Shown one piece after another: positions 19,919 to 60,599 of a DNA stretch of 62,968 bases. The stretch comes from Pyrinomonadaceae bacterium (lineage in GTDB: Bacteria > Acidobacteriota > Blastocatellia > Pyrinomonadales > Pyrinomonadaceae). Positions within the stretch are counted from its first letter, which is position 1. Each line of letters starts with the position of its first letter. The notes under the pieces are model-generated. The model saw only the letters and a program-made list of their open reading frames with translations, searched no databases and was not told where the DNA came from. The translations under genes were made by a program, and so were the position numbers. The DNA lies in NCBI GenBank assembly GCA_036374695.1, contig DASUTF010000269.1, positions 1 to 62,968 of the forward strand, given 5' to 3'.

Positions 19919-21694
19919 ATGAACGACGTGCCCGAGCAAACGCCCAAGCCTCCGCTTTCGAGTGCCAACTCTGAGGGCGACGCGTCTGCAGCTTCTTCAA
20001 ATCACGACACCGAGAATGCGGGTCGTAGGTCACCGGGTAACGCCGCTGAAATAGCCGGCGCGACTGTTGACGTTGTCGGCGAGGCGACGGGGCGGTTTCC
20101 GCGCGTGCCGATCGCAAAGAGCGAGAGTACGGGAAGGTCAGCTCTTCTGGTGGGCGCAGGAATTCTGCTGAGTAGAATTCTCGGCGTCCTCCGCCAACGC
20201 GCGTTCGCGCATTATCTGGGTACGTCTGACGCGGCCGGGGCTTTTGATGCGGCGTTTCGCATTCCTAACTTCTTACAAAACGTTTTTGGTGAGGGCGCCC
20301 TGTCGGCTTCGTTTATACCTGTGTATGCGAAGTTACTGGCTAAGGGCGAGGACAAGGAAGCCGCCCGAGTCGCCGATGCAGTCTTGACGCTGCTGGCGTT
20401 GATAACGTCAGTGATTGTCCTGATCGGCATTCTGACAACTCCGTACTGGATCGTTCTATTTGCCAAGAGCTTTGACGACGCCACCCGCGAATTAACGATT
20501 CGTTTAGTGCGCATCTTGTTTCCGGGCGCGGGACTGCTGGTTCTATCCGCCTGGTGTCTGGGTGTTCTCAATAGCCACCGCCGTTTCTTCCTTTCTTACA
20601 CGGCGCCGGTTGCCTGGAACCTGGCAATCATCGCCACCCTGATTTGGTTTGGTCCGCGCGAGGAACAATTTCGCCTGGCCGAGATCGTGGCGTGGGGATC
20701 GGTTGTCGGCAGTGCACTGCAATTCGGAGTGCAATTGCCCACCGTTCTGAAATTGGTTCGGCGCTTGCGACCCGTTCTGGATATCGCGAGTGAAAACGTG
20801 CGCACGGTCCTGCGGAATTTCTTTCCGGTCTTTATCAGTCGCGGAGTGGTCCAGATTTCGGCCTTTGTGGACGGCATCCTGGCAGGCCTAATCAGCACCC
20901 AGGCGGTAGCGTCACTGACCTACGCTCAAAGCCTCTACACCTTACCGATCAGCCTGTTCGGAATGTCGGTATCGGCGGCGGAACTGCCCGCCATGTCCAG
21001 CGCGGTGGGCACCAACGCGGAGATCGCGTCCCAGCTGCGGACCAGACTTGATCAGGGTCTGCGGCGTATCGCGCTTTTCATTGTGCCTTCGATCGTGGCC
21101 ATCCTGGCCCTGGGCGATGTGATGATAGCCGTGCTTTATCAGACTGGCCGATTCGGCCCTGAGGCCACTCGCTATGTCTGGGCGATCCTGGCCGGCTCAA
21201 CTATTGGTTTGTTGGCTTCGACGCTGGGGCGTCTTTACGCGTCGACGTATTATGCGCTGCGCGACACGCGCACCCCGTTACGATACGCAATTCTGAGAGT
21301 GACGTTGGCGATGGGCCTTGGCTATATCGTCGCGATTCATGGGCCTGTGCTGATCGGCGTCGATCCCAAATGGGGCGCCGCCGGTCTCACAGCGTCGTCG
21401 GGAGTTGTCGGCTGGATTGAATTTGCCTTGCTGCGGCGGACCATGAATCGAAGAATTGGTTGGACTGGCTTGTCGGCCGGCTACGTGGCCCGGTTATGGC
21501 TGGCCGCAGTGACTGGCGCCGGCCTCGGCTGGCTTATCAAACTAACCATCGGCATGCGGCATCCGGCCATTATCGCGTCACTGGTGCTGATACCGTACGG
21601 GCTCACGTACTTTGCCCTGGCGTGGCTGTTGCGCGTTCCGGAAGCCGCCGCCGTTATCAATCGAAGTCTTCGCGTGCTTCGTTTGAAGACCTAA
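19919..21694 (+). CDS. murJ: Lipid II flippase MurJ (MviN)
   Basis: Multi-TM protein with MurJ-type N-terminal region LLSRILGVLRQRAFAHYLGTSDAAGAFDAAFRIPNFLQNVFGEGALSASFIPVY. Long low-complexity N-terminal extension. The track start 19886 lies inside a J repeat, so ATG 19919 or later is preferred. Confidence 0.88.
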   Translation: MNDVPEQTPKPPLSSANSEGDASAASSNHDTENAGRRSPGNAAEIAGATVDVVGEATGRFPRVPIAKSESTGRSALLVGAGILLSRILGVLRQRAFAHYLGTSDAAGAFDAAFRIPNFLQNVFGEGALSASFIPVYAKLLAKGEDKEAARVADAVLTLLALITSVIVLIGILTTPYWIVLFAKSFDDATRELTIRLVRILFPGAGLLVLSAWCLGVLNSHRRFFLSYTAPVAWNLAIIATLIWFGPREEQFRLAEIVAWGSVVGSALQFGVQLPTVLKLVRRLRPVLDIASENVRTVLRNFFPVFISRGVVQISAFVDGILAGLISTQAVASLTYAQSLYTLPISLFGMSVSAAELPAMSSAVGTNAEIASQLRTRLDQGLRRIALFIVPSIVAILALGDVMIAVLYQTGRFGPEATRYVWAILAGSTIGLLASTLGRLYASTYYALRDTRTPLRYAILRVTLAMGLGYIVAIHGPVLIGVDPKWGAAGLTASSGVVGWIEFALLRRTMNRRIGWTGLSAGYVARLWLAAVTGAGLGWLIKLTIGMRHPAIIASLVLIPYGLTYFALAWLLRVPEAAAVINRSLRVLRLKT

Positions 21695-21703
21695 TCGGCA
21701 AAC

Positions 21704-21732
21704 AAAAAAAGGCCCCACCGAAGTGGAGCCTC
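21704..21732 (-). terminator. Rho-independent terminator of the subtilase gene
   Basis: The minus strand reads GAGGCTCCAC-TTCG-GTGGGGCC followed by TTTTTTTG, about 25 nt after the stop at 21757. Confidence 0.75.
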
Positions 21733-21756
21733 ATGAATTCCGCATGGTCGTGGTAG

Positions 21757-24315
21757 TTATTTCTCCACTGCCATGCCCTCGGTGTTGTCGCCAGGGAAGT
21801 AGCGCGTGGCATCGGCAACAAGTACGCCGTCGGCAACGAGCACGCCGCGACCGTCGGCAATGAGCACGCCGCGGCCGTCGGCTAATAGAGTGCCATCTGA
21901 CAAGAGAACGCCGTCGCTAATCAGCACGCCATCGCCGATGAGAACGCCGTCGCTGAGCAACACGCCGTCACTGAGGAGAACGCCGTTCGTCATGAGCACT
22001 ACGCCGTTACTCATCGCCATGCCGGTGCTAATCATGATGTTGTCGCTGAGCAGCACGCCGCTCGACAGCATGGTGTTGTCGCTCAACAGGACGCCATCAG
22101 AAATCAGCACGCCATCCGACAACAGGACGCCCTGACGGTAAATGGCCTGGTACTTGGTGATCAGCGCCGCGCCCGTGGCCCAGTTGTGATTGAAAATCAC
22201 TCCCTGCGACCATTCGAAGGTTTCGCCCGCGATGGTTGTCTTCGAGAGCGGTGCCGAACTGGTCAAGAGCGGCGAACCGACGGCAGTAGTGCCGTTGAAA
22301 TCTGTGCGCATGGCCTTCGCCAATCGCACAGCGCCTTCCAGGTTTACCTCTCCCGCGCCCTGCTCCAGCGTGTTGTAGCCCTTCAAAGACTGCGCCGTGT
22401 ACATGAGAATCATCTTCACCATGTTCGGCGTTAGCCGCGGATTGGCCTCGAGCATCACCGCCACTGCACCCGCAACGATCGGAGCTGACACCGAGGTGCC
22501 GCTCAGACGCATGGTGCCTTTGCCGCTAGGCGATCTGCAATCCGACACACAGAGTTCGGGATTTTTCGCTACCAGGTTGTTGACCGGCGCGGCCGCTCCG
22601 ATAATTTTGTTACCCGGTGCGACGACGTCCGGCTTGATCAGGTTGTCGTAATGCTTCACGCCCTGAGCATCTGTCCAGAAGCTGCGGGTGGGACCTCTCG
22701 AACTGAATGTCGCGACTACATCATCGCTGCGCGCATCACTGCCGAAGGTGTTCACCGCGCCAACGGTGAGCGCCGATGGCTCGTTACCGGGAGAGTGAAT
22801 CCGGCCGTACAGTTTCGCGTGGGTATTATCCTTGCCCTCGTTTCCGGCTGCGGCGACCACCACGATGCCCGAGTTCACCAGCCAGCGGACCGTGCGACAG
22901 ACTGGATCGTTCTTATACGAATCCACAGCCGCTGTTCCCAGGCTGAGATTCACGACGCGGATGTTATACGTATTCCGGTAATACCAAACGGTGTAGAGGG
23001 CGTACAGCAAGCCTGATGTGGAACCGACACCCTGCGAGTTCAGCACGCGTAGGTTTAACAAGTTAGCACGGCCGGCAATGCCGCCGTACGGGCCATCCGG
23101 CGCGGCAATCATCGAAGCGACGAACGTGCCGTGGCCGTAACGATCTTCTGTAGTGCCTTCACCGGTAAAGTCACGGCTGTAAACGATGCGTCCAGCCAGG
23201 CTCTTTTGCCTCGGCGAGATTCCTGAATCCAGGACTGCGATACCAATGCCGCTTCCGTCCATACCCTTATTGCGCGGATTAGCCAGCATGGCTGTTTCGC
23301 CGATCGTGGTTTCGACGTGGCCCAGGCCTTTAAGCGGCCGATCGAGCGAAACGTACTTTGCCCACTGACTGGACGCCAGCTCAAAAACTCCCGTGGTCGG
23401 AATCTCGACCGCAAGAGTCTTGAAGGCAGCGAGCTCGGTGCTGGGTTTAACACCCCACTCCGCCAGCTTGGCGCGCAGTTCAGGGTTGTTAAGGTCGCTG
23501 ACTTGAAGAATCACTTTGACGGTTGCCGGCCCGCCGGGAGTCTCAATGACCTCGCGCAAGTCATCTGAAATCTTTTCGCCGGTAAACTCTTCAGTGTCGG
23601 CGGTTTCGGCGTTGGCCTCTTCGTTGTTCGTTTCGTTAGCAGCGGTCGCTTCCGTAACTTGGATTGTGGTAAACAGCGACGCCAGCTTCTCGTCGCCGGC
23701 TATCGCGTCCTCGAATGTGCCGTGGGTCGAAGCGCCGATGCACTTGAACTTGCCGGCCGCGATCGCTTCGCGCACAAATTCGGAAACAGTCGCGTCAAAC
23801 GCGGCTGACGTGCCGACGAGAGAGTGAAGGGGATCGATAACGAGGATGACTTTGGTATCTGAATTTTCGATTTCGGACAGAACCGCCGCCAGCGTGGTTT
23901 TGAGTTGTTCTGCATTCTTTGTGTCGTGGAAGAGCTTGTCCAGGTCGAGTTTCAACACGCGGCGGCCCATCAATTCTTCCGGCCCTTGTCCGCGAGCAAT
24001 CTGACGGGCTACTCCGGCGATGACGACGTTGCGCTCAGCCTGCGAGTCGGTCAGCAGGACAGGATTGTTTTGCTCGGCCAGAATCGCCAATGCGCGGGTG
24101 ATCTCTTTGGCTTGATCGCTAAACGAATCGAATTTCCCCTGTTCGGCTGCGGCAGTAATGTCGCGGGTGTATCGCGCCAGAGCGGTGGGGGCGGCTGGCT
24201 CATTAACCTGCGCCTGAGCGGTGTCGCTGACCAGGATTCCCAGCAAGAGGGAAACGGCTATCGTGGCCGCTGTCAGCGACCGCCAGGTAATCGGGGGTAG
24301 GTTTGTGTGTCTCAT
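21757..24315 (-). CDS. Secreted subtilisin-like serine protease (S8) with N-terminal degenerate Clp/Hsp100 NBD1-like module and C-terminal hexapeptide array
   Basis: Signal peptide (..LGILVSDTAQAQ). Residues about 45-220 are Clp NBD1-like. Acidic linker, then I9-like propeptide. Catalytic motifs IAVLDSG (D), HGTFVAS (H), SGTSVSAP (S). Residues 729-835 form the hexapeptide array. Confidence 0.9.
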   Translation of the reverse strand: MRHTNLPPITWRSLTAATIAVSLLLGILVSDTAQAQVNEPAAPTALARYTRDITAAAEQGKFDSFSDQAKEITRALAILAEQNNPVLLTDSQAERNVVIAGVARQIARGQGPEELMGRRVLKLDLDKLFHDTKNAEQLKTTLAAVLSEIENSDTKVILVIDPLHSLVGTSAAFDATVSEFVREAIAAGKFKCIGASTHGTFEDAIAGDEKLASLFTTIQVTEATAANETNNEEANAETADTEEFTGEKISDDLREVIETPGGPATVKVILQVSDLNNPELRAKLAEWGVKPSTELAAFKTLAVEIPTTGVFELASSQWAKYVSLDRPLKGLGHVETTIGETAMLANPRNKGMDGSGIGIAVLDSGISPRQKSLAGRIVYSRDFTGEGTTEDRYGHGTFVASMIAAPDGPYGGIAGRANLLNLRVLNSQGVGSTSGLLYALYTVWYYRNTYNIRVVNLSLGTAAVDSYKNDPVCRTVRWLVNSGIVVVAAAGNEGKDNTHAKLYGRIHSPGNEPSALTVGAVNTFGSDARSDDVVATFSSRGPTRSFWTDAQGVKHYDNLIKPDVVAPGNKIIGAAAPVNNLVAKNPELCVSDCRSPSGKGTMRLSGTSVSAPIVAGAVAVMLEANPRLTPNMVKMILMYTAQSLKGYNTLEQGAGEVNLEGAVRLAKAMRTDFNGTTAVGSPLLTSSAPLSKTTIAGETFEWSQGVIFNHNWATGAALITKYQAIYRQGVLLSDGVLISDGVLLSDNTMLSSGVLLSDNIMISTGMAMSNGVVLMTNGVLLSDGVLLSDGVLIGDGVLISDGVLLSDGTLLADGRGVLIADGRGVLVADGVLVADATRYFPGDNTEGMAVEK
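21811..22131 (-). repeat. 18-nt periodic coding repeat (G-V-L-[LIV]-[SA]-D hexapeptides, about 17-18 units)
   Basis: GVLLSDGVLISDGVLLSDNTMLSSGVLLSDNIMISTGMAMSNGVVLMTNGVLLSDGVLLSDGVLIGDGVLISDGVLLSDGTLLADGRGVLIADGRGVLVADGVLVAD. Confidence 0.9.
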
Positions 24316-27217: not shown

Positions 27218-29236
27218 ATGAGAAGAATCAGAATCCATCGAGTAGCCGCGTGGCTAACTTGTTTCTCAGTTTTGGTTTCATTGTCGGCTGGGATTCTCGT
27301 GGGGGAACGGGCTCATGCAGCATCTCATGAGAACTCGCCGCAAGCCACAAAGGTATCTTCGGACCTGGCTGAGAAGGCACGCGGACCAAAAAACACGGAT
27401 CCGGTGAAAGTGATTCTCCAACTCAACGGACCCATGAGCGGGCAACTGACTGCTTTGCTTAATAAGAATGGCGCACATATCAACAAAACATTCAAGAATC
27501 TTGGTGCACATGCTATTGACCTGCCCGCCGCCATCGTCGACCAGATAGCCGCTTTTGACGAGGTGGCCTATATCTCTGTTGATCGAGAAACCCGTGCGAC
27601 TGGCCACCTGACTGCCACCACTGGAACAGACTTAGTACGTACCCAGAGTAACCTCCTGGGTGGTACACAGACATTGGATGGAACCGGAATTGGCATTGCC
27701 GTTATAGACTCAGGGTTAGATCTCGGACACGTGGCCTTCCAGGACAAGTATGGTTATAGGCGAATCGCAGTAAGCAAAGATTTTACCGGCGAGAATCGCG
27801 TTGATGATCCCTATGGTCACGGAACACATGTGGCCGCGATCGCAGCCGGTAACGGCAAGGTGGCAAGTGGGGCGTACACAGGTGTGGCTCCGAATGCGAA
27901 GCTTGTAAATCTCCGCGTCCTGAATTCAACGGGAACTGGAACTGTCTCCGCTACTCTCGCTGCGCTGGATTGGGTATTGACGCATCGAAGCGATTACAAC
28001 ATTCGTGTGGTCAACATCAGTCTTGGTACAGCTGCCATTGATTCGTATAAATACGATCCAATTTGCCGGGCTGTGCGCCGGCTTGTCGACGCGGGCGTGG
28101 TGGTGGCTGCTGCGGCCGGAAATGATGGAAAGAACAGTGCCGGGGAGAAGGTCTATGGACTAGTTCATTGCCCCGGCAATGAACCATCGGCGATTACCGT
28201 TGGAGCGGCAAATACGTTTGGCACTGACGCACGCAACGATAATGGGGTCACGACTTATAGCTCGCGCGGCCCGACCCGTAGTTACTGGACTGACGCCAAC
28301 GGACTCAAACATTACGACCACTTGATGAAGCCGGATTTGGTCGCACCTGGCAACAAGATTATCGGTGCTGAAGCTGACGATAACCTTTTGGTGACTGAGA
28401 ATCCGCAACTGGACGCCGGTGTTAGTAACTACGAGAATCGCAAATACATGTACCTCAGCGGTAGCTCGATGGCGACGCCAGTCGCCGCCGGCGCCGCGGC
28501 CCTGCTTTTTCAGGCCAATCCCACCCTCACGCCGAACATGATTAAGGCCCTCCTGATGTATACGGCACAACCGCTGCGAGGCTTCAATACCCTCGAGCAG
28601 GGCGCGGGCGAACTCAACGTTGAGGGTGCCGTCCGCGTGGCTCGGTTGGTACGTACGGACTTTGGAAACACCAAGCCGATCGGAGCACCTCTCCTGAACA
28701 CACTACTCCCGCCCGCACCTTTTACGACAATCGCCGGACATACGTTTACGTGGTCCCAGGGAATTCTCCTGGGCCACCGCTTCGCGACGGGTACGAGCCT
28801 GATCACCAAGTATCAGCCTGTTTATGTCAGCGGCGTTCTATTGAGTGAGGGAATTATCGTCAGCGATGGCGTCCTTCTGAGCGAGGGAATCATTGTTAGC
28901 GATGGCGTTCTTCTGAGCGAAGGGATCATCGTTAGCGACGGTATTATCGTCAGCGATGGCATCATTGTCAGCGACGGTATTATTGTCAGCGATGGCATAA
29001 CGATTAGTGACGGGGCGCTTTTCGTCAGCATGGGCATCATTGTCAGCGATGGCATCATCGTTAGCGATGGCTATGTACTGGCTGACGGGATAATTGTTAG
29101 CGACGGGATCATCGTCAGCGATGGCATCATCGTTAGCGACGCCTTCGTTCAGGCGCAGACCGCGATGGTCGCCGGCGATCTTGGCCCGGCTTGCCCGGTG
29201 GTGGTCGACAATGGCGTGGACTACACCGAAAACTGA
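27218..29236 (+). CDS. Secreted subtilisin-like serine protease (S8) with I9-like propeptide and C-terminal hexapeptide array
   Basis: Signal peptide (LTCFSVLVSLSAGILVGERAHA). IAVIDSG (D), HGTHVAA (H), SGSSMATP (S). Long stretches nearly identical to the 21757..24315 paralog (e.g. GNEPSAITVGAANTFGTDAR / SSRGPTRSYWTD / APGNKIIGA). Residues 539-641 form the hexapeptide array. Confidence 0.92.
   Translation: MRRIRIHRVAAWLTCFSVLVSLSAGILVGERAHAASHENSPQATKVSSDLAEKARGPKNTDPVKVILQLNGPMSGQLTALLNKNGAHINKTFKNLGAHAIDLPAAIVDQIAAFDEVAYISVDRETRATGHLTATTGTDLVRTQSNLLGGTQTLDGTGIGIAVIDSGLDLGHVAFQDKYGYRRIAVSKDFTGENRVDDPYGHGTHVAAIAAGNGKVASGAYTGVAPNAKLVNLRVLNSTGTGTVSATLAALDWVLTHRSDYNIRVVNISLGTAAIDSYKYDPICRAVRRLVDAGVVVAAAAGNDGKNSAGEKVYGLVHCPGNEPSAITVGAANTFGTDARNDNGVTTYSSRGPTRSYWTDANGLKHYDHLMKPDLVAPGNKIIGAEADDNLLVTENPQLDAGVSNYENRKYMYLSGSSMATPVAAGAAALLFQANPTLTPNMIKALLMYTAQPLRGFNTLEQGAGELNVEGAVRVARLVRTDFGNTKPIGAPLLNTLLPPAPFTTIAGHTFTWSQGILLGHRFATGTSLITKYQPVYVSGVLLSEGIIVSDGVLLSEGIIVSDGVLLSEGIIVSDGIIVSDGIIVSDGIIVSDGITISDGALFVSMGIIVSDGIIVSDGYVLADGIIVSDGIIVSDGIIVSDAFVQAQTAMVAGDLGPACPVVVDNGVDYTEN
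28832..29140 (+). repeat. 18-nt periodic coding repeat (G-I-I-V-S-D / G-V-L-L-S-E hexapeptides, about 17 units)
   Basis: GVLLSEGIIVSD x3, then GIIVSD runs, one irregular GITISDGALFVSM segment, then GIIVSD..GYVLAD..GIIVSD x3. Confidence 0.92.
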
Positions 29237-29282
29237 CATCTTCATCATAGTCTTCCATACCCTCGGATAATCGGAGCAAGCG

Positions 29283-30167
29283 ATGCAACCAGGAACTGAA
29301 AACCTACGCTCATTGGCTGTGCCAAGCATGGCTCAGTCGATTCAGTCCTTGCGCAACAGGCACAAGACAGAGGTGTTGGATTTTCTCTCCGCTCGTCCCC
29401 TGCACACCTTCATCATGACTGGTTGGATACGCGACAATGGTCTCACTAGCCCTTTGAATCGCGGTATGTTCTACGGCTACCGAAACCAGCAGGGCCACCT
29501 TCAAGGTGTCGCATTGATTGGCCACGTAACTCTATTCGCAACCGACTCTGAAGACGCTTTGTCAGAATTCAGCAGGCTGACACAAGATTGTCCCACGGCC
29601 AATGCGGTGATGGGCGAGGAAAATAAAGTGGCACGATTCCTTGCTTACTATACCGCTGGGCGACCTGCACCTCGTCTGGTTTGTCGCGAGTTGCTGTTCG
29701 AGCGGCGCTCAAAGCAACCATCGGATGAACCACTGCCTAATCTACGTTTGGCGACGCGGGCCGAAGTCGAGCTCGTTATCAAGGTGCATGCTGAAAGGGC
29801 AGTTGAAGAGACGGGCGTGAATCCATTAGATGTGGATCCGGTCCGGTTTCGCCAACGGTGCACCCGCCGAGTTGACCAAGAGCGTGTGTGGGTTGCCGTT
29901 GAAGACAACCGGCTGGTATTCAAGGCCGACGTGATTTGTGACTTGCCTGAGGTTACTTATCTTGAAGGTGTCTACGTTAGCCCGGAGCGACGCGGCAATG
30001 GATTTGGCACGCGCTGCATGCGCCACCTAACTAATCTACTGCTGAGTCGCAGCAAGTCAGTATGCCTCTCAATAAAAGAACACAACTCAGCGGCGAAAGC
30101 CTGCTACCAAAGAGCCGGCTATCAAGTGCGCGACTATTACCAGACCGTCTTTCTTCATCGGAACTAG
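29283..30167 (+). CDS. GNAT-family N-acetyltransferase with an N-terminal accessory domain
   Basis: C-terminal acetyl-CoA binding region LEGVYVSPERRGNGFGTRCMRHL...NSAAKACYQRAGY. Confidence 0.75.
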   Translation: MQPGTENLRSLAVPSMAQSIQSLRNRHKTEVLDFLSARPLHTFIMTGWIRDNGLTSPLNRGMFYGYRNQQGHLQGVALIGHVTLFATDSEDALSEFSRLTQDCPTANAVMGEENKVARFLAYYTAGRPAPRLVCRELLFERRSKQPSDEPLPNLRLATRAEVELVIKVHAERAVEETGVNPLDVDPVRFRQRCTRRVDQERVWVAVEDNRLVFKADVICDLPEVTYLEGVYVSPERRGNGFGTRCMRHLTNLLLSRSKSVCLSIKEHNSAAKACYQRAGYQVRDYYQTVFLHRN

Positions 30168-30217
30168 CGCAGATCGCAAGGGTGAACCTGCCGCTGGGAG
30201 TTTGGAAAGGGCACGCC

Positions 30218-32689
30218 ATGAACAAGCAGCATTACCTGAAACCATTTGTTGCCGTGGTCGCCGCGGTTGCGGTAGCTATAATGGTGTCAAGTCTACTAAG
30301 TTTCCCAGCGTCCCAGCTCAATGTTCGCTTTCTGATGTTGTTTCTGTTAACGGTCTTGATCGGCCGTTTGGTCGTTCATATCCCGAGCATAAAGGGAGAG
30401 TTAACCGTTTCGGACACTTTGATCTTTCTCACCATGCTGCTCTGCGGGGGTGACGCGGCGGTCATTGTCGCTGGGGTGGCAGGGGTCTGTTCTTCATTAA
30501 AAGTGACCCGGAAAGTCTCAGTTCATGTTTTTAATTTTGCGGTGATGACGTGTTCTACGTTTCTCACTGTAATCATGCTACGCACCCTTTTCGGGCCCAT
30601 CGGAATGCTGGGTTCGCGCAGTCTCTCTGTTCTTTTGATTACAACGATGGCGATTGTTCAATACATCGCCAATAGCGCCTTGGTGACGATTTATACCGGT
30701 TGCAAAGCTGACATGCCTTTTTGGCAGACCTGGCGTAGATATTATTTGTGGGCCTCGATTACTTACCTTGCCGGCGCTTCGGCCGCCTTTCTCATCGTCA
30801 AGTTAATGGCTGTCATCGGTTTCTATGGGATGATTGCCACGTTTCCGGTAATAGCGATTGTCTATATCACCTACAAGACTTATCTGAAGAACGTTGAAGC
30901 CTCGGTTGCGCAGGCCGAACAAGCCAAACTTCACGCGGAACTTCTGCAGGAAAGTGAAGAGCGTTTCAGAAGTGCTTTCGATTATGCAGCGGTCGGGATG
31001 GCGCTCGTTTCTTCCGAAGGCCGCTTTCTGGAGGTAAATCATTCCCTGTGCCGGCTTGTGGGCTATTCCGAGGCGGAATTGCTGGAGAGCGATATCCAAG
31101 GAGTGATACATCCTGAAGATCTTGGGGACGTCCTCGTGCAACAGACTCGGCTCAGCAAAGGGCAGGTTGCTGGTTACCAAACAGAGAAACGATACATCCA
31201 TAAGTCCGGTCATGAGGTTTGGACCTTGGTGAGTGTTTCACGTGTTCGCGACCCCGAGACGCACTCGCTGCGCTTCATCTTTCAAATTCAAGATATCACC
31301 GATCGTAAGCATGCTGAGGCCCAACTAGTCCACGACGCCTTTCATGACGGTCTGACCGGTTTACCTAACCGAGCTCTGTTTATTGATCACCTAAAGCTTG
31401 CGGTCGCTCGAAGTGCGCGGAAAGAATCTGCGCTGTTCTCCGTCCTGTTTCTCGATTTGGATCGTTTCAAGGTGGTGAACGACAGCCTTGGTCATCTGGT
31501 CGGCGATCAACTGTTAAAGGCGCTGGCGCTGAGATTGAAAGAATGTTTGCGACCGGGAGATTCGATCGCGCGGTTCGGCGGAGATGAATTCACCATCCTG
31601 CTTGAGGATCTCAACAGCAATAACGAGGCGATTCATGTTGCCGAGCGCATCCAACGTGCCCTGGCGCAGCCGTTCGAGCTTGAGGGCCGCCAGGTTTTTA
31701 CTACCGCGAGCATAGGCATCGCCCCAAGCATCACCGGCTACGAGCGTCCCGAAGACATTTTGCGCGATGCCGACACCGCGATGTATTACGCCAAGTCGTT
31801 GGGCGGCAGTCGTCATCAAATATTCGATCGTAGCATGCACACTCGCGCCGTAAAGTTACTGCAAATGCAGACCGATCTGCGGCAAGCAATCGAACGACAA
31901 GAATTGTTCGTTGAATATCAGCCGATTGTGGAACTGGACAGCTTTCAGATCCTCGGCTTCGAGGCTCTTGCGCGTTGGAGACACGCAGAACATGGGCTGA
32001 TCTCCCCCGCGCAATTCATACCTGTCGCGGAAGAAACCGGTCTAATCATTCCGATCGGCGAATGGGTGCTCAGAAAGGCATGCGCCCAAATTCGGGAATG
32101 GCAGAAACTGTTTCCCAGAGAGACTCCTTTGACAATAAGCGTCAATATTTCAGGCGCTCAGTTCGCCCAGCCGAACCTTATAGAAAACATAGAGCGAATC
32201 CTTGAGGAAACGAATCTGGATCCACACAGCTTGCGGCTGGAAATCACCGAAAGTGTCGTAGTCGAAAACGTAGAGGCCGCCAGCGAAATGCTCAAACGGC
32301 TGCGCGTCCTTGGAGTCGGCTTAAGCATCGATGATTTTGGCACCGGTTACTCTTCCTTGAGTTCGTTGCATCGTTTTCCGATCTCCACTTTGAAGATTGA
32401 TTCGTCATTTGTCAGCCGGATGGATGGCAACAGTGAAAACACCGAAATTGTCCGCACGATTATGGCCCTCGCCGGCAATCTCGGCATGGACGTCACCGCC
32501 GAGGGCGTGGAGACGCTGGAACAAGTTACCAAGTTAAGGACTTTTGGATGTGAAAAAGGACAGGGATTCTTCTTCTCCCGACCACTTGCGGCCCCGGAAG
32601 CCGGAGAGCTACTGAAAGAAACTCCGCTGATTTCGATGCCTCACTACGGCGACAACGTGCAATCACTAGTCGACAGGTTAGTGGCATAA
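30218..32689 (+). CDS. Membrane-bound PAS-GGDEF-EAL c-di-GMP signalling protein
   Basis: About 7 N-terminal TM helices, PAS (SEERFRSAFDYAAVGMALVS...), GGDEF (RFGGDEFTILL), EAL (GFEALARW, DDFGTGYSS, EGVE). ATG 30218 preferred over the track start 30062. Confidence 0.92.
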   Translation: MNKQHYLKPFVAVVAAVAVAIMVSSLLSFPASQLNVRFLMLFLLTVLIGRLVVHIPSIKGELTVSDTLIFLTMLLCGGDAAVIVAGVAGVCSSLKVTRKVSVHVFNFAVMTCSTFLTVIMLRTLFGPIGMLGSRSLSVLLITTMAIVQYIANSALVTIYTGCKADMPFWQTWRRYYLWASITYLAGASAAFLIVKLMAVIGFYGMIATFPVIAIVYITYKTYLKNVEASVAQAEQAKLHAELLQESEERFRSAFDYAAVGMALVSSEGRFLEVNHSLCRLVGYSEAELLESDIQGVIHPEDLGDVLVQQTRLSKGQVAGYQTEKRYIHKSGHEVWTLVSVSRVRDPETHSLRFIFQIQDITDRKHAEAQLVHDAFHDGLTGLPNRALFIDHLKLAVARSARKESALFSVLFLDLDRFKVVNDSLGHLVGDQLLKALALRLKECLRPGDSIARFGGDEFTILLEDLNSNNEAIHVAERIQRALAQPFELEGRQVFTTASIGIAPSITGYERPEDILRDADTAMYYAKSLGGSRHQIFDRSMHTRAVKLLQMQTDLRQAIERQELFVEYQPIVELDSFQILGFEALARWRHAEHGLISPAQFIPVAEETGLIIPIGEWVLRKACAQIREWQKLFPRETPLTISVNISGAQFAQPNLIENIERILEETNLDPHSLRLEITESVVVENVEAASEMLKRLRVLGVGLSIDDFGTGYSSLSSLHRFPISTLKIDSSFVSRMDGNSENTEIVRTIMALAGNLGMDVTAEGVETLEQVTKLRTFGCEKGQGFFFSRPLAAPEAGELLKETPLISMPHYGDNVQSLVDRLVA

Positions 32690-56708: not shown

Positions 56709-56843
56709 TGATCTTTGGTCTTTGATCTTTGGACTTTGTCCCTCTTGGCAACGATTGTGGTCGGCGGCAGCCTGAGTTAGAAGTCAAAGACCAAAGACCA
56801 AAGACCAAAAACCAAAGACCAAAAACCAAAACCAAAGACGAAA
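56709..56843. repeat. Family G oligo-word inverted repeat (TCTTTGGTC ... AAGACCAAAGACC)
   Basis: gatctttggtctttgatctttggactt ... aagtcaaagaccaaagaccaaagaccaaaaaccaaagaccaaaaaccaaaaccaaagac. Confidence 0.85.
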
Positions 56844-59800: not shown

Positions 59801-60472
59801 ATGTTAATCGAAACTCACGAAGTCACCCGGCTCTATCAGATGGGCACGAACGAGGTCGTTGCGCTGGATCGCGTGACGATGGGAATTGAGGAAGGCGAGT
59901 TCGTGGCCATCCGCGGAACGTCGGGTTCGGGCAAGTCAACTTTGCTGAATCTGCTCGGCGGGCTCGATCGGCCGACGAGTGGCGAGGTCTTGTTTGATTC
60001 GAAGCCGCTGGGTCCGCTGACGAAAAAACAGATGGCGCGTTACCGGCGCTTCTCAGTCGGGATGATCTTTCAAAACTTTAATTTGATTCCGACGATGACG
60101 GCGGCTGAGAACGTGTGGCTGGCGCTGGCGTTTGGCGGAGTCCGCGGTGGCGAGCGACGTAAGCGGGCGGCGGAACTCCTGAAACGCGTCGGGCTGGGAG
60201 ATCGCATGGAGCACCGGCCGGCGGAACTCTCAGGCGGCGAACAGCAGCGGGTGGCGATCGCGCGCGCGCTGGCAAATCGCCCACGCCTTCTGCTTGCGGA
60301 TGAGCCGACCGGAAATCTAGACTCGACCCGCGCGCACGAATTGCTTTCTCTGTTGCGTGAAATGGTCGCGAGCGACCGGCTCACGGTTTTACTGGTCACG
60401 CACGATCATGAACTGGCCAGCAGCTTTGCGGATCGAATAGTCATGATGAAGGACGGAAAGGTGATTGATTGA
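59801..60472 (+). CDS. ABC transporter ATP-binding protein (LolD/MacB/FtsE-like), no permease adjacent
   Basis: Walker [10 protein letters not shown], signature [15 protein letters not shown], Walker [16 protein letters not shown] 59801 preferred over track start 59732. Confidence 0.9.
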
Positions 60473-60599
60473 GCCATTGAACCATTGAACCATTGAATCA
60501 TTGACTCATTGATGCATTGACTCAATCCCGGCTCTCAATGAATCAATGAATCAAATGAATCAATGAGCCAATGACCAATGGATCAATTGAGGTAATTTC
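60473..60599. repeat. Family H oligo-word inverted repeat (CATTGA x7 ... TCAATG/CAATGA x7)
   Basis: ccattgaaccattgaaccattgaatcattgactcattgatgcattgactcaatcccggctctcaatgaatcaatgaatcaaatgaatcaatgagccaatgaccaatggatcaattg fills the whole ABC-to-cNMP gene spacer. Confidence 0.88.

What the first reader, a model, noticed from the sequence alone, without database searches (positions are those of the whole stretch)
21811..22131. About 107-aa C-terminal array of G-V-L-[LIV]-[SA]-D hexapeptides on subtilase 1
Residues 729-835 are an almost uninterrupted 6-residue (18-nt) periodic array: GVLLSD GVLISD GVLLSD ... GVLIGD GVLISD GVLLSD GTLLAD GRGVLIAD GRGVLVAD GVLVAD. It ends 17 aa before the stop codon. 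The pattern is Gly, three aliphatic residues, a small residue, then an acidic residue. It does not fit the classic left-handed beta-helix hexapeptide rule ([LIV]-[GAED]-x2-[STAV]-x), pentapeptide repeats, or RTX nonapeptides. The strict period and alternating hydrophobic/acidic character suggest a beta-solenoid or an amphipathic surface- or cation-binding tail. I cannot assign it to a named repeat family.
Basis: seen in the sequence. Interest (0 to 1): 0.65.

Follow-up and report, generated by a model that had tools for sequence, protein, structure and literature searches.

The report
Left-handed beta-helix tail on secreted subtilases
The 107-residue G-V-L-L-S-D array is real and conserved, and by sequence it is a Ser-substituted form of the well-known bacterial "hexapeptide / isoleucine-patch" repeat, here used as a non-enzymatic C-terminal tail on exported proteases of soil Acidobacteria, so it is a known repeat in an undescribed setting rather than a new one.

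Summary
Residues 729-835 of an 852-aa exported S8 subtilase (window 21757-24315, minus strand) form a period-6 array ending 17 aa before the stop. A paralogous subtilase (27218-29236, plus strand) carries a GIIVSD version.

Read in the register L-[S/G/A]-D-G-V-L, the unit is the classic left-handed beta-helix (LbH) hexapeptide with Ser at the usual Gly/Ala position.
- Subtilase 1 scores just below Pfam Hexapep (22.2 bits against a cut-off of 27).
- 34 of 73 relatives match Hexapep (best E = 4e-18).
- All 19 PDB profile hits are LbH proteins.
- The family profile reaches real hexapeptide acyltransferases at E = 4e-9.
- Order-scrambled control arrays lose the match.

The array is not an assembly artefact, because independent contigs span it without indels. 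Its length is constrained: 44 of 85 relatives span exactly 85 aa. Identical units use scrambled codons, so the peptide itself is under selection.

AlphaFold2 failed twice (array pLDDT about 40-70), so the fold is inferred and not shown. The function is also inferred. It is probably a rigid acidic oligomerisation or attachment stalk.

Verdict: a new variant of a known kind, of modest interest.

The parts
21757..24315 (-). Subtilase 1 gene (852 aa plus stop). It encodes an exported S8 peptidase carrying the array.
   Evidence: ORF. Peptidase_S8 E = 3.1e-43. Catalytic motifs DSG363, HGT395 and GTSV606 are present.
24211..24315 (-). Sec-type signal peptide (aa 1-35, ...LLLGILVSDTAQA).
   Evidence: Read directly from the sequence. 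The assignment is an inference from its n-h-c layout and AxA site. No predictor was run.
23644..24183 (-). ClpB/ClpC NBD1-like pseudo-AAA+ segment (aa 45-224) with degraded Walker A and Walker B motifs.
   Evidence: TIGR03346 E = 1.6e-32. PDB 2p65 and 1jbk E about 1e-27, with the alignment showing GDPGVGKT replaced by TDSQAERN and IDEIH by IDPLH.
22360..23256 (-). S8 catalytic domain (aa 354-652).
   Evidence: Pfam PF00082.
22132..22359 (-). Conserved linker domain (aa 653-728) ending in the entry motif W-S-Q-G...TKYQ..Y.
   Evidence: Conserved in alignments A1 and A2. This was the only confidently modelled part in AF2, with pLDDT 76-89.
22042..22131 (-). Array block A (aa 729-758): 5 hexapeptide units, GVLLSD GVLISD GVLLSD NTMLSS GVLLSD.
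   Evidence: Aligned with family block A.
21985..22041 (-). Degenerate middle of the array (aa 759-777): NIMIST GMAMSN GVVLMTN. It contains the family-wide single extra residue.
   Evidence: Array span modulo 6 equals 1 in 58 of 85 relatives. The position is conserved.
21811..21984 (-). Array block B (aa 778-835): 6 regular units, then two 8-residue units (GRGVLIAD, GRGVLVAD) and a final GVLVAD.
   Evidence: Insertions among orthologues fall only between D and G, at the predicted corner.
21760..21810 (-). C-terminal 17 aa (ATRYFPGDNTEGMAVEK) carrying the family motif G-D-x-T-x-x-M. It may cap the array.
   Evidence: A motif of this type follows the array in 72 of 85 relatives. The cap role is an inference.
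21709..21732 (-). Intrinsic terminator hairpin plus T-run, immediately after the stop codon.
   Evidence: 10-bp stem, 6 GC pairs.
27218..29236 (+). Subtilase 2 gene (672 aa), a paralogue with the same tail architecture but without the ClpB-like segment.
   Evidence: ORF. Peptidase_S8 E = 9.5e-53.
28832..29140 (+). Paralogous hexapeptide array of subtilase 2 (aa 539-641), made of GVLLSE and GIIVSD units.

Best explanation
The array is a translated, selected protein domain built from the bacterial-transferase hexapeptide ('isoleucine patch') repeat. It most likely folds into a left-handed parallel beta-helix (LbH) with three units per 18-residue turn. That gives about 6 turns in subtilase 1 and about 4.7 turns in the typical 85-aa family array.

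In the register L(i)-S(i+1)-D(i+2)-G(i+3)-V(i+4)-L(i+5), the expected layout is:
- The last aliphatic residue and the Val point into the prism.
- Asp-Gly forms the corners.
- A second aliphatic residue and Ser line the outer faces.

The array has no catalytic loops or residues, so it is not an acyltransferase. My best guess is that it serves as a rigid, strongly acidic stalk on an exported S8 protease. That stalk would oligomerise the enzyme (LbH domains characteristically pack as trimers) or attach it to a partner or surface.

What is shown and what is inferred:
- Shown: the repeat type, its conservation, its constrained length, and selection at the peptide level.
- Inferred: the LbH fold, at about 0.65.
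- Weakly inferred: the stalk, oligomerisation or attachment role, at about 0.3.
For: Sequence identity of the repeat:
- The subtilase 1 tail matches Pfam LbH_EIF2B (25.6 bits) and Hexapep (22.2 bits against a cut-off of 27).
- 34 of 73 family tails match Hexapep (best E = 4e-18) and 45 of 73 match LbH_EIF2B (best 2.4e-11).
- phmmer against the PDB gives almost only LbH proteins, with QdtC 3fs8 best at 1.5e-4.
- The family profile against the PDB gives 19 of 19 LbH proteins, with LpxD 3eh0 best at 1.7e-5, and the alignment pairs l-s-D-g-v-l with L-G-D-N-V-I.
- The family profile against 5.8 billion proteins reaches DapH/DapD/GlmU-type acyltransferases carrying PF00132/PF14602 at E = 4e-9 to 1e-5.
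- hhalign against those acyltransferases gives 98.6% probability and E = 1.4e-15 in the same register.

Control for period and composition: idealised (GVLLGD)x12 scores 52.9 bits on Hexapep, while three permutations with the same composition and period give no LbH hit.

Solenoid-like behaviour:
- Insertions among orthologues occur only between D and G.
- The array span is exactly 85 aa in 44 of 85 relatives.
- Gly is 100% and Asp 92% conserved over 793 units.

Selection on the peptide: identical units in subtilase 1 share 0.72 nucleotide identity against 0.72 expected from codon usage, and 0.47 against 0.40 at third positions.

The sequence is real: independent contigs span it without indels, and the family is present in 77 Acidobacteriota MAG loci.
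Against: AlphaFold2 did not produce an LbH or any confident fold for the array in two attempts. These used 34 and 60 sequences, and the second alignment included real LbH acyltransferases. Array pLDDT was about 40-70, while the adjacent linker domain reached 76-89 with the same alignments. Foldseek found nothing significant for either model.

Subtilase 1 and subtilase 2 themselves fall below Pfam's gathering thresholds and fail the strict PROSITE-type pattern, because Ser replaces Gly/Ala. Idealised (GVLLSD)x12 keeps only a sub-threshold LbH_EIF2B match.

The hhalign partner set was chosen by the family profile, so that comparison is not independent. HMM matches between periodic, low-complexity sequences can be inflated.

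No evidence of any kind bears directly on oligomeric state, localisation, or whether the tail is retained in the mature enzyme.
Confidence: 0.6

Rival explanations
1. The array forms a different beta-solenoid or an intertwined homotrimeric beta-helix or fibre, of the kind seen in VgrG, T4 gp5 and phage tail fibres. Such a structure would exist only as an oligomer, and the resemblance to LbH hexapeptides would be convergent.
For: Monomer AF2 failed twice although the neighbouring domain folded. The non-significant top Foldseek hits of the second model were VgrG spikes and phage tail fibres, which suggests AF2 drew an extended beta ribbon. Some orthologues carry runs of 8-residue units, for example DRAGVLVA x6 in L009, which recalls octapeptide triple beta-helices. 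The outward-facing aliphatic position is always hydrophobic.
Against: Every significant sequence and profile match is to single-chain LbH proteins, in a consistent register. The Foldseek hits have E > 2. No Pfam model for trimeric beta-helix domains matched the native sequence.
Confidence: 0.15
2. The array is a cation-dependent acidic module. It would fold or bind through Ca2+ or another metal, or bind mineral surfaces through its Asp ladders, in the manner of an RTX beta-roll. This would retain the protease on the cell envelope or on soil particles. This rival is compatible with an LbH scaffold and differs mainly in function.
For: Asp is 92% and the following Gly 100% conserved across 793 units, which is far more than canonical LbH corners require. 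Net charge is about -11 over 107 aa. The protein has a signal peptide and comes from soil organisms. A related canonical hexapeptide array sits next to Ca-binding thrombospondin type-3 repeats in P0211.
Against: The period is 6, not 9. There is no GGxGxD motif and no Pfam RTX (HemolysinCabind) hit. A Sec signal peptide is the opposite of the type I secretion pathway used by RTX proteins. No direct evidence of metal binding exists, and Asp-Gly may simply be the best corner-forming pair.
Confidence: 0.12
3. The tail is a C-terminal pro-sequence or export aid that is removed after secretion, as described for some other secreted subtilases, or it is a largely disordered spacer. It would not be part of the working enzyme.
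For: Low AF2 confidence. C-terminal extensions that assist secretion and are later cleaved are known for secreted subtilases such as aqualysin I (my own knowledge, not tested here). Endings after the array vary: bare, fn3 domain, T/S-rich plus basic, or D-x-G-x-D-Y-L-G-Y.
Against: The strict conservation of period, length (85 aa in 44 of 85) and residue identity, together with scrambled codons, argues for a folded structure under strong selection rather than a spacer. In several relatives an fn3 domain follows the array, so the array is internal there. No known sorting signal matched.
Confidence: 0.1
4. The array is an artefact: a collapsed or expanded tandem repeat from assembly, or a non-coding DNA repeat that happens to be open.
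For: Short-read assemblers do break in this region in some samples. In runs X2 and X3 contigs end inside the array, and one low-depth contig in X1 shows a 50-nt back-joint.
Against: Two independent contigs span the whole array without indels. The array is conserved in-frame in 77 loci from different MAG projects, some of them complete long-read chromosomes. The DNA is only about 72% identical between units that encode the same peptide, so it is a poor substrate for collapse. The ORF ends at a terminator.
Confidence: 0.01

Closest known systems
Bacterial transferase hexapeptide repeat / left-handed beta-helix domain (Pfam PF00132 Hexapep and PF14602; LpxA, LpxD, GlmU, DapD, QdtC, gamma-carbonic anhydrases)
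   Same: It shares the 6-residue period and the register: aliphatic, small residue, x, x, small or Val, x. Profile matches are significant at family level. Insertions are tolerated only at the corner position.
   Different: Ser occupies the Gly/Ala position in about half the units. The units are almost idealised, with invariant Asp-Gly. There is no catalytic His, no substrate loops and no CoA-binding C-terminal extension. The domain is exported behind a signal peptide and fused to a protease. Subtilase 1 and subtilase 2 themselves fall below Pfam's cut-off.
Non-catalytic LbH domains (eIF2B epsilon/gamma LbH PF25084, GMPPB C-terminal domain PF25087, carboxysome CcmN, dynactin p25/p27)
   Same: These are LbH arrays used as scaffolds or protein-protein docking modules rather than as enzymes. 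PF25084 is the most frequent Pfam match for the family tails, 45 of 73. CcmN and the eIF2B subunits appear among the PDB hits.
   Different: Those domains are cytoplasmic and sit in unrelated protein contexts with irregular units. The scores here are below the PF25084 gathering score of 54 bits for subtilase 1. A docking role is assumed here by analogy only.
RTX nonapeptide beta-roll (GGxGxDxUx)
   Same: It is a Gly/Asp-rich, strictly periodic extracellular solenoid in which turn Asp residues do the work. It is a possible functional analogy for the invariant Asp-Gly corners.
   Different: The period is 9, not 6. RTX proteins use type I secretion without a signal peptide. No Pfam match was found.
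C-terminal accessory domains of secreted subtilases (P-domain, PPC, beta-jelly-roll, fn3, C-terminal pro-sequences)
   Same: The position is the same, directly after the S8 domain of an exported enzyme. Some relatives add an fn3 domain after the array.
   Different: None of these is a hexapeptide-repeat beta-helix. I found no paper describing an S8-LbH architecture.

Membership tests
Hexapeptide-repeat / LbH family (PF00132, PROSITE PS00101-type rule) | Tandem 6-residue period with an aliphatic residue at position i and a small residue or Val at i+4. | tested here: met
   In the register L-S-D-G-V-L, 13 subtilase 1 units and 17 subtilase 2 units fit once Ser is allowed at i+1. Family composition is G100 | V66 | L62 | L60 | S44/G44/A7 | D92. 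The same register appears in the PDB and hhalign alignments.
Hexapeptide-repeat / LbH family (PF00132, PROSITE PS00101-type rule) | Strict pattern [LIV]-[GAED]-x2-[STAV]-x repeated. The full PS00101 pattern was recalled from memory. | tested here: not met
   Subtilase 1 has only 3 strict hits and subtilase 2 has 1. Neither matches the full pattern, because Ser replaces [GAED]. 23 of 85 relatives do match the full pattern.
Hexapeptide-repeat / LbH family (PF00132, PROSITE PS00101-type rule) | Pfam HMM score above the gathering threshold. | tested here: inconclusive
   Subtilase 1 scores 22.2 bits against a cut-off of 27, and subtilase 2 gives no Hexapep hit. 34 of 73 homologous tails match at E <= 1e-3, with the best at 4e-18. 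Idealised GVLLGD scores 52.9 bits and its permuted controls give no hit.
Hexapeptide-repeat / LbH family (PF00132, PROSITE PS00101-type rule) | Left-handed parallel beta-helix three-dimensional fold. | tested here: inconclusive
   Two AF2 runs gave array pLDDT of about 40-70. Foldseek found no hit with E <= 0.001.
Hexapeptide-repeat / LbH family (PF00132, PROSITE PS00101-type rule) | Trimeric assembly of the prisms. | not testable with these tools
   No multimer prediction or experiment was available.
Hexapeptide acyltransferases (LpxA/LpxD/GlmU/DapD-type enzymes) | Catalytic residues or loops and an acyl-CoA/ACP binding extension attached to the LbH. | tested here: not met
   The array contains only G, V, L, I, M, S, A, T, N, D and R. 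It has no His and no loops. Only 17 aa follow it. All NCBIfam enzyme models score far below their cut-offs, 9-22 bits against cut-offs of 130-500.
RTX calcium-binding nonapeptide repeat | 9-residue GGxGxDxUx period and no N-terminal signal peptide. | tested here: not met
   The period is 18 nt or 6 aa. No Pfam RTX hit was found. A signal peptide is present.
Pentapeptide repeat | 5-residue period A(D/N)LXX. | tested here: not met
   The period is 6. No Pfam pentapeptide hit was found.
C-terminal sorting or anchoring signals (PEP-CTERM, LPXTG, T9SS CTD, autotransporter barrel and similar) | A recognisable signal motif plus a TM helix or barrel at the C-terminus. | tested here: not met
   No NCBIfam or Pfam sorting-domain hit was found on either tail. 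The last 17 aa are polar with no hydrophobic helix.
Peptidase S8 (subtilase), the host protein | S8 domain with the Asp-His-Ser triad. | tested here: met
   PF00082 E = 3.1e-43 and 9.5e-53. DSG, HGT and GTS(V/M) or GSSM motifs are present.

The most novel reading that the evidence does not exclude
The tail defines a distinct extracellular class of idealised, strongly acidic beta-helix module, with invariant Asp-Gly corners and uniform residue ladders held by selection rather than by DNA homogenisation. It would fold or self-assemble only outside the cell, perhaps with the help of cations. It would tether or polymerise proteases, and in other lineages lectins and lipases, on the envelope or on soil particles, as part of a subtilase-GNAT-c-di-GMP gene module.
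Probability: 0.15. Interest if true: 0.6.

Novelty: new variant of a known kind. Interest (0 to 1): 0.35.

Why it matters
If the inference holds, a fold best known from cytoplasmic acyltransferases has been recruited as a conserved accessory domain of exported subtilases across a major soil lineage (Blastocatellia/Pyrinomonadaceae). That architecture is absent from the literature I could search.

The family is also a clean natural example of near-perfect peptide repeats kept identical by selection while their codons have drifted to randomness. That is useful for thinking about how solenoid ladders constrain sequence, and for repeat-protein design.

In practical terms, it tells annotators that 'GVLLSD'-type arrays should be read as Ser-variant hexapeptide (LbH) repeats that current Pfam thresholds narrowly miss.

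Tried and rejected
- **AF2 on the 201-aa tail with 34 homologues and on the 166-aa tail with 60 sequences including LbH acyltransferases.** Both gave low confidence in the array. Foldseek against the PDB found nothing significant for either model.
- **Strict PROSITE-type pattern.** It fails on subtilase 1 and subtilase 2.
- **Reversed sequence as a control.** It was of limited use because the unit is nearly palindromic, so I used order permutations instead.
- **Giant proteins (1,200-5,000 aa) found by the exhaustive search.** They carry other acidic period-6 or period-12 repeats, for example SEGAVASEGALD and GYGLIISDSETLSD. I rejected them as family members.
- **Literature searches for subtilase plus LbH or hexapeptide, and for Pyrinomonadaceae or Blastocatellia proteases.** They returned nothing relevant.
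- **RTX, pentapeptide, bactofilin, sorting-signal and autotransporter readings.** I considered and rejected these because there were no model hits and the period is wrong.
- **Recent slippage or gene conversion as the cause of unit uniformity.** I rejected this for subtilase 1, where synonymous sites are at the random expectation. It is not fully rejected for subtilase 2 or for a few lineages (L068, L069, L049, L073), where third-position identity is 0.5-0.8.
Full report
**1. Observation**

The finding lies in the ORF at 21757..24315 on the minus strand (852 aa). Residues 729-835, nt 21811-22131, are a period-6 array:
- GVLLSD GVLISD GVLLSD NTMLSS GVLLSD
- NIMIST GMAMSN GVVLMTN
- GVLLSD GVLLSD GVLIGD GVLISD GVLLSD GTLLAD GRGVLIAD GRGVLVAD GVLVAD

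The array is followed by 17 residues and the stop codon. Tandem Repeats Finder reports periods of 18, 24 and 36 nt over 21812-22131. A six-frame motif scan finds 13 in-frame units inside the array and only two stray matches elsewhere in that frame. A second subtilase at 27218..29236 on the plus strand (672 aa) carries a paralogous array of GVLLSE and GIIVSD units at 28832-29140. The coordinates and the description are therefore correct. The description does gloss over a degenerate 19-aa middle stretch and the 7- and 8-residue units.

**2. Not an artefact**
- A Logan contig from soil run X1 spans 21400-22419 with no differences. A 349-bp contig from an unrelated soil run, X4, spans 21813-22161 with 13 substitutions and no gaps.
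- The ORF ends at a 10-bp-stem intrinsic terminator at 21732..21709.
- Units that encode the same peptide share only 0.72 nucleotide identity. That is exactly the value expected from the gene's codon usage. Third positions are 0.47 against 0.40 expected. The DNA is therefore only weakly repetitive.

**3. Host protein**

Both proteins are S8 peptidases with intact triad motifs and N-terminal signal-peptide-like sequences. I infer that they are exported.

**4. Family**

A scan of one genome per species found 195 relatives. All 77 loci kept come from Acidobacteriota MAGs: Pyrinomonadaceae, Blastocatellia and Chloracidobacterium. The closest has 87% identity. An exhaustive search of 1.84 billion cluster representatives with the tail alone found 324 clusters at E <= 1e-3 and 79 at E <= 1e-10.

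The tail architecture is conserved:
- an entry motif, W-S-Q-G ... TKYQ..YG.G
- block A of 4-7 units
- a degenerate middle of about three units with one extra residue
- block B, usually six units
- a motif of the type ..QA.S...GD.T..M, present in 72 of 85 tails

Some tails then continue into an fn3 domain, a T/S-rich basic end, or a D-x-G-x-D-Y-L-G-Y end.

The array span is exactly 85 aa in 44 of 85 tails, and 90-92 aa in another 16. Span modulo 6 equals 1 in 58 of 85. Subtilase 1, at 107 aa, is at the long end. Its close orthologues differ only by one unit or by 2-4-residue insertions, and these always fall between Asp and Gly.

**5. What the repeat is**

Over 793 units the composition by position is G 100%, V 66%, L 62%, L 60%, S 44% / G 44% / A 7%, and D 92%. 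Rotated to L-[S/G/A]-D-G-V-L, this is the classic hexapeptide rule [LIV]-[GAED]-x-x-[STAV]-x with Ser tolerated at the second position. Subtilase 1 fails the strict rule only for that reason: 3 strict hits against 13 relaxed hits. 23 of 85 relatives match the full PROSITE-type pattern, which I recalled from memory.

Independent model libraries agree:
- The subtilase 1 tail scores 25.6 bits on LbH_EIF2B and 22.2 bits on Hexapep (cut-off 27).
- 34 of 73 family tails match Hexapep (best E = 4e-18) and 45 of 73 match LbH_EIF2B (best 2.4e-11).
- Several database fragments already carry precomputed PF00132, and one is named 'acetyltransferase-like isoleucine patch superfamily enzyme' by JGI.
- phmmer against the PDB returns almost only left-handed beta-helix proteins.
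- The family profile returns 19 of 19 LbH proteins, led by LpxD at 1.7e-5, with l-s-D-g-v-l aligned to L-G-D-N-V-I.
- Against 5.8 billion proteins the profile reaches DapH/DapD/GlmU-type acyltransferases at E = 4e-9 to 1e-5.
- hhalign against those acyltransferases gives 98.6% probability and E = 1.4e-15 in the same register. That comparison is not independent, because the partners were chosen by the profile.

A control shows the signal is not just period and composition. (GVLLGD)x12 scores 52.9 bits on Hexapep, while three order-permuted arrays give no LbH match. (GVLLSD)x12 retains only a sub-threshold LbH_EIF2B match, which explains why subtilase 1 narrowly misses the cut-off.

**6. Structure**

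AlphaFold2 was run twice. The linker domain before the array was modelled at pLDDT 76-89, but the array reached only about 40-70. Foldseek found nothing significant for either model. The left-handed beta-helix fold is therefore inferred from sequence and was not confirmed here. The failure leaves room for an assembly-dependent fold.

**7. Evolutionary behaviour**

Units are 87% identical within a protein and 64.5% identical between proteins. Different lineages use GVVLGD, GVILGD, GILLGD, GMLMSD, GLLISD, GLMISD, GVAIGD or GIIVSD. Synonymous sites in subtilase 1 are at the random expectation, so this uniformity is maintained at the peptide level. I interpret it as selection for uniform residue ladders in a solenoid. 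A few lineages and subtilase 2 keep some DNA-level similarity.

**8. Mechanism proposed**

I propose a non-catalytic LbH prism with a Leu/Val interior, Asp-Gly corners, and faces lined by a conserved aliphatic residue and Ser. It carries a net charge of about -11.

No catalytic residues, loops or CoA-binding extension are present, and the enzyme-level NCBIfam models score far below their cut-offs. By analogy with other LbH domains, the most likely role is oligomerisation or docking, giving a rigid acidic stalk on the exported protease.

The near-invariant Asp and the always-hydrophobic outer position are more conserved than a bare scaffold needs. That keeps cation-binding, surface-binding and self-assembly readings open.

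Period-6 arrays of various kinds also occur next to lectin, thrombospondin type-3, GDSL lipase and CarboxypepD_reg domains in other metagenomic proteins. Two of these, P0211 and P0222, have signal peptides and canonical Hexapep scores of 68-88 bits. Hexapeptide arrays as accessory modules of secreted proteins are therefore not unique to this family.

**9. Comparison and novelty**

The repeat belongs, at family level, to the hexapeptide/LbH kind. It is not an acyltransferase, RTX repeat, pentapeptide repeat or known sorting signal.

What is new is the setting and the style:
- It is a conserved C-terminal domain of exported S8 proteases across Blastocatellia.
- Its units are idealised Ser/Gly-Asp-Gly units.
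- Its length is fixed.
- It is under peptide-level selection.

I found no literature on this architecture. I rate it a new variant of a known kind, with modest interest.

**10. Side observations**
- Residues 45-224 of subtilase 1 are a ClpB NBD1 homologue with destroyed Walker motifs, placed behind a signal peptide. This segment is shared by 52 of 77 loci.
- The subtilase is followed by a GNAT acetyltransferase in 43 of 77 loci and by a PAS-GGDEF-EAL protein in 41 of 77. The pair is sometimes duplicated as a unit.

Noticed in passing
window 23644-24183 (minus strand; subtilase 1 aa 45-224): A clear homologue of the ClpB/ClpC/Hsp104 NBD1 large subdomain (E about 1e-27 to 1e-32) sits directly behind the signal peptide of an exported protease. 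Walker A (GDPGVGKT to TDSQAERN) and Walker B (IDEIH to IDPLH) are destroyed, so it is a pseudo-AAA+ domain. It is present in 52 of 77 related loci. This may be more unusual than the hexapeptide array itself.
   Followed up: partly
window 27218-32689 (subtilase 2, GNAT 29283-30167, PAS-GGDEF-EAL 30062-32689); loci L011-L077: There is a conserved same-strand module: array-bearing subtilase, then a GNAT-like acetyltransferase of about 300 aa, then a membrane PAS-GGDEF-EAL protein. The GNAT is found in 43 of 77 loci and the GGDEF/EAL protein in 41 of 77. The pair is duplicated as a unit in L076, L074, L037, L013, L015, L020 and L029. It occurs with both subtilase types, but not next to window subtilase 1 or its orthologues L001-L008. 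This suggests a functional link to c-di-GMP signalling.
   Followed up: partly
window 28832-29140 (plus strand): The subtilase 2 array alternates GVLLSE and GIIVSD in its first part and shows 36-, 54- and 72-nt DNA periods. Identical units share 0.83 nucleotide identity against 0.73 expected. Unlike subtilase 1, it therefore retains traces of more recent multi-unit duplication.
   Followed up: partly
loci L010, L017, L049, L068, L069, L070, L076 and others: Each lineage has its own near-perfect unit (GILLGD, GVVLGD, GLLMSD, GLMISD, GMLMSD, GLLISD, GVAIGD). Units are 87% identical within a protein and 64.5% identical between proteins, yet codons are mostly scrambled. This points to peptide-level co-variation of all units.
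   Followed up: yes
window 21806-22135 (plus strand) and 28838-29329 (minus strand): Long antisense ORFs of 109 and 163 aa, rich in S/T/P or A/D/N, lie exactly over the two arrays. They are by-products of the repeat's codon periodicity and I do not consider them genes.
   Followed up: no
proteins P0098, P0119, P0126, P0138, P0185: Giant metagenomic proteins of 1,200-5,000 aa carry many stretches of other acidic period-6 or period-12 repeats, for example SEGAVASEGALD and GYGLIISDSETLSD. They score against the tail but are a different repeat.
   Followed up: partly
window about 21904-21953, run X1: A low-depth (2.3x) contig shows a 50-nt 'goes back' joint inside the array, and short variant contigs overlap 21862-22016. 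These probably come from co-occurring related strains or paralogues with slightly different unit order.
   Followed up: no
window 60468-60520 and 60535-60587; also 56785-56843: Two adjacent 8-nt tandem arrays (ATTGAACC x6.6 and TCAATGAA x6.6) look roughly like inverted copies of each other. There is also a 7-nt array, CAAAGAC x8.6. Both are unrelated to the finding.
   Followed up: no
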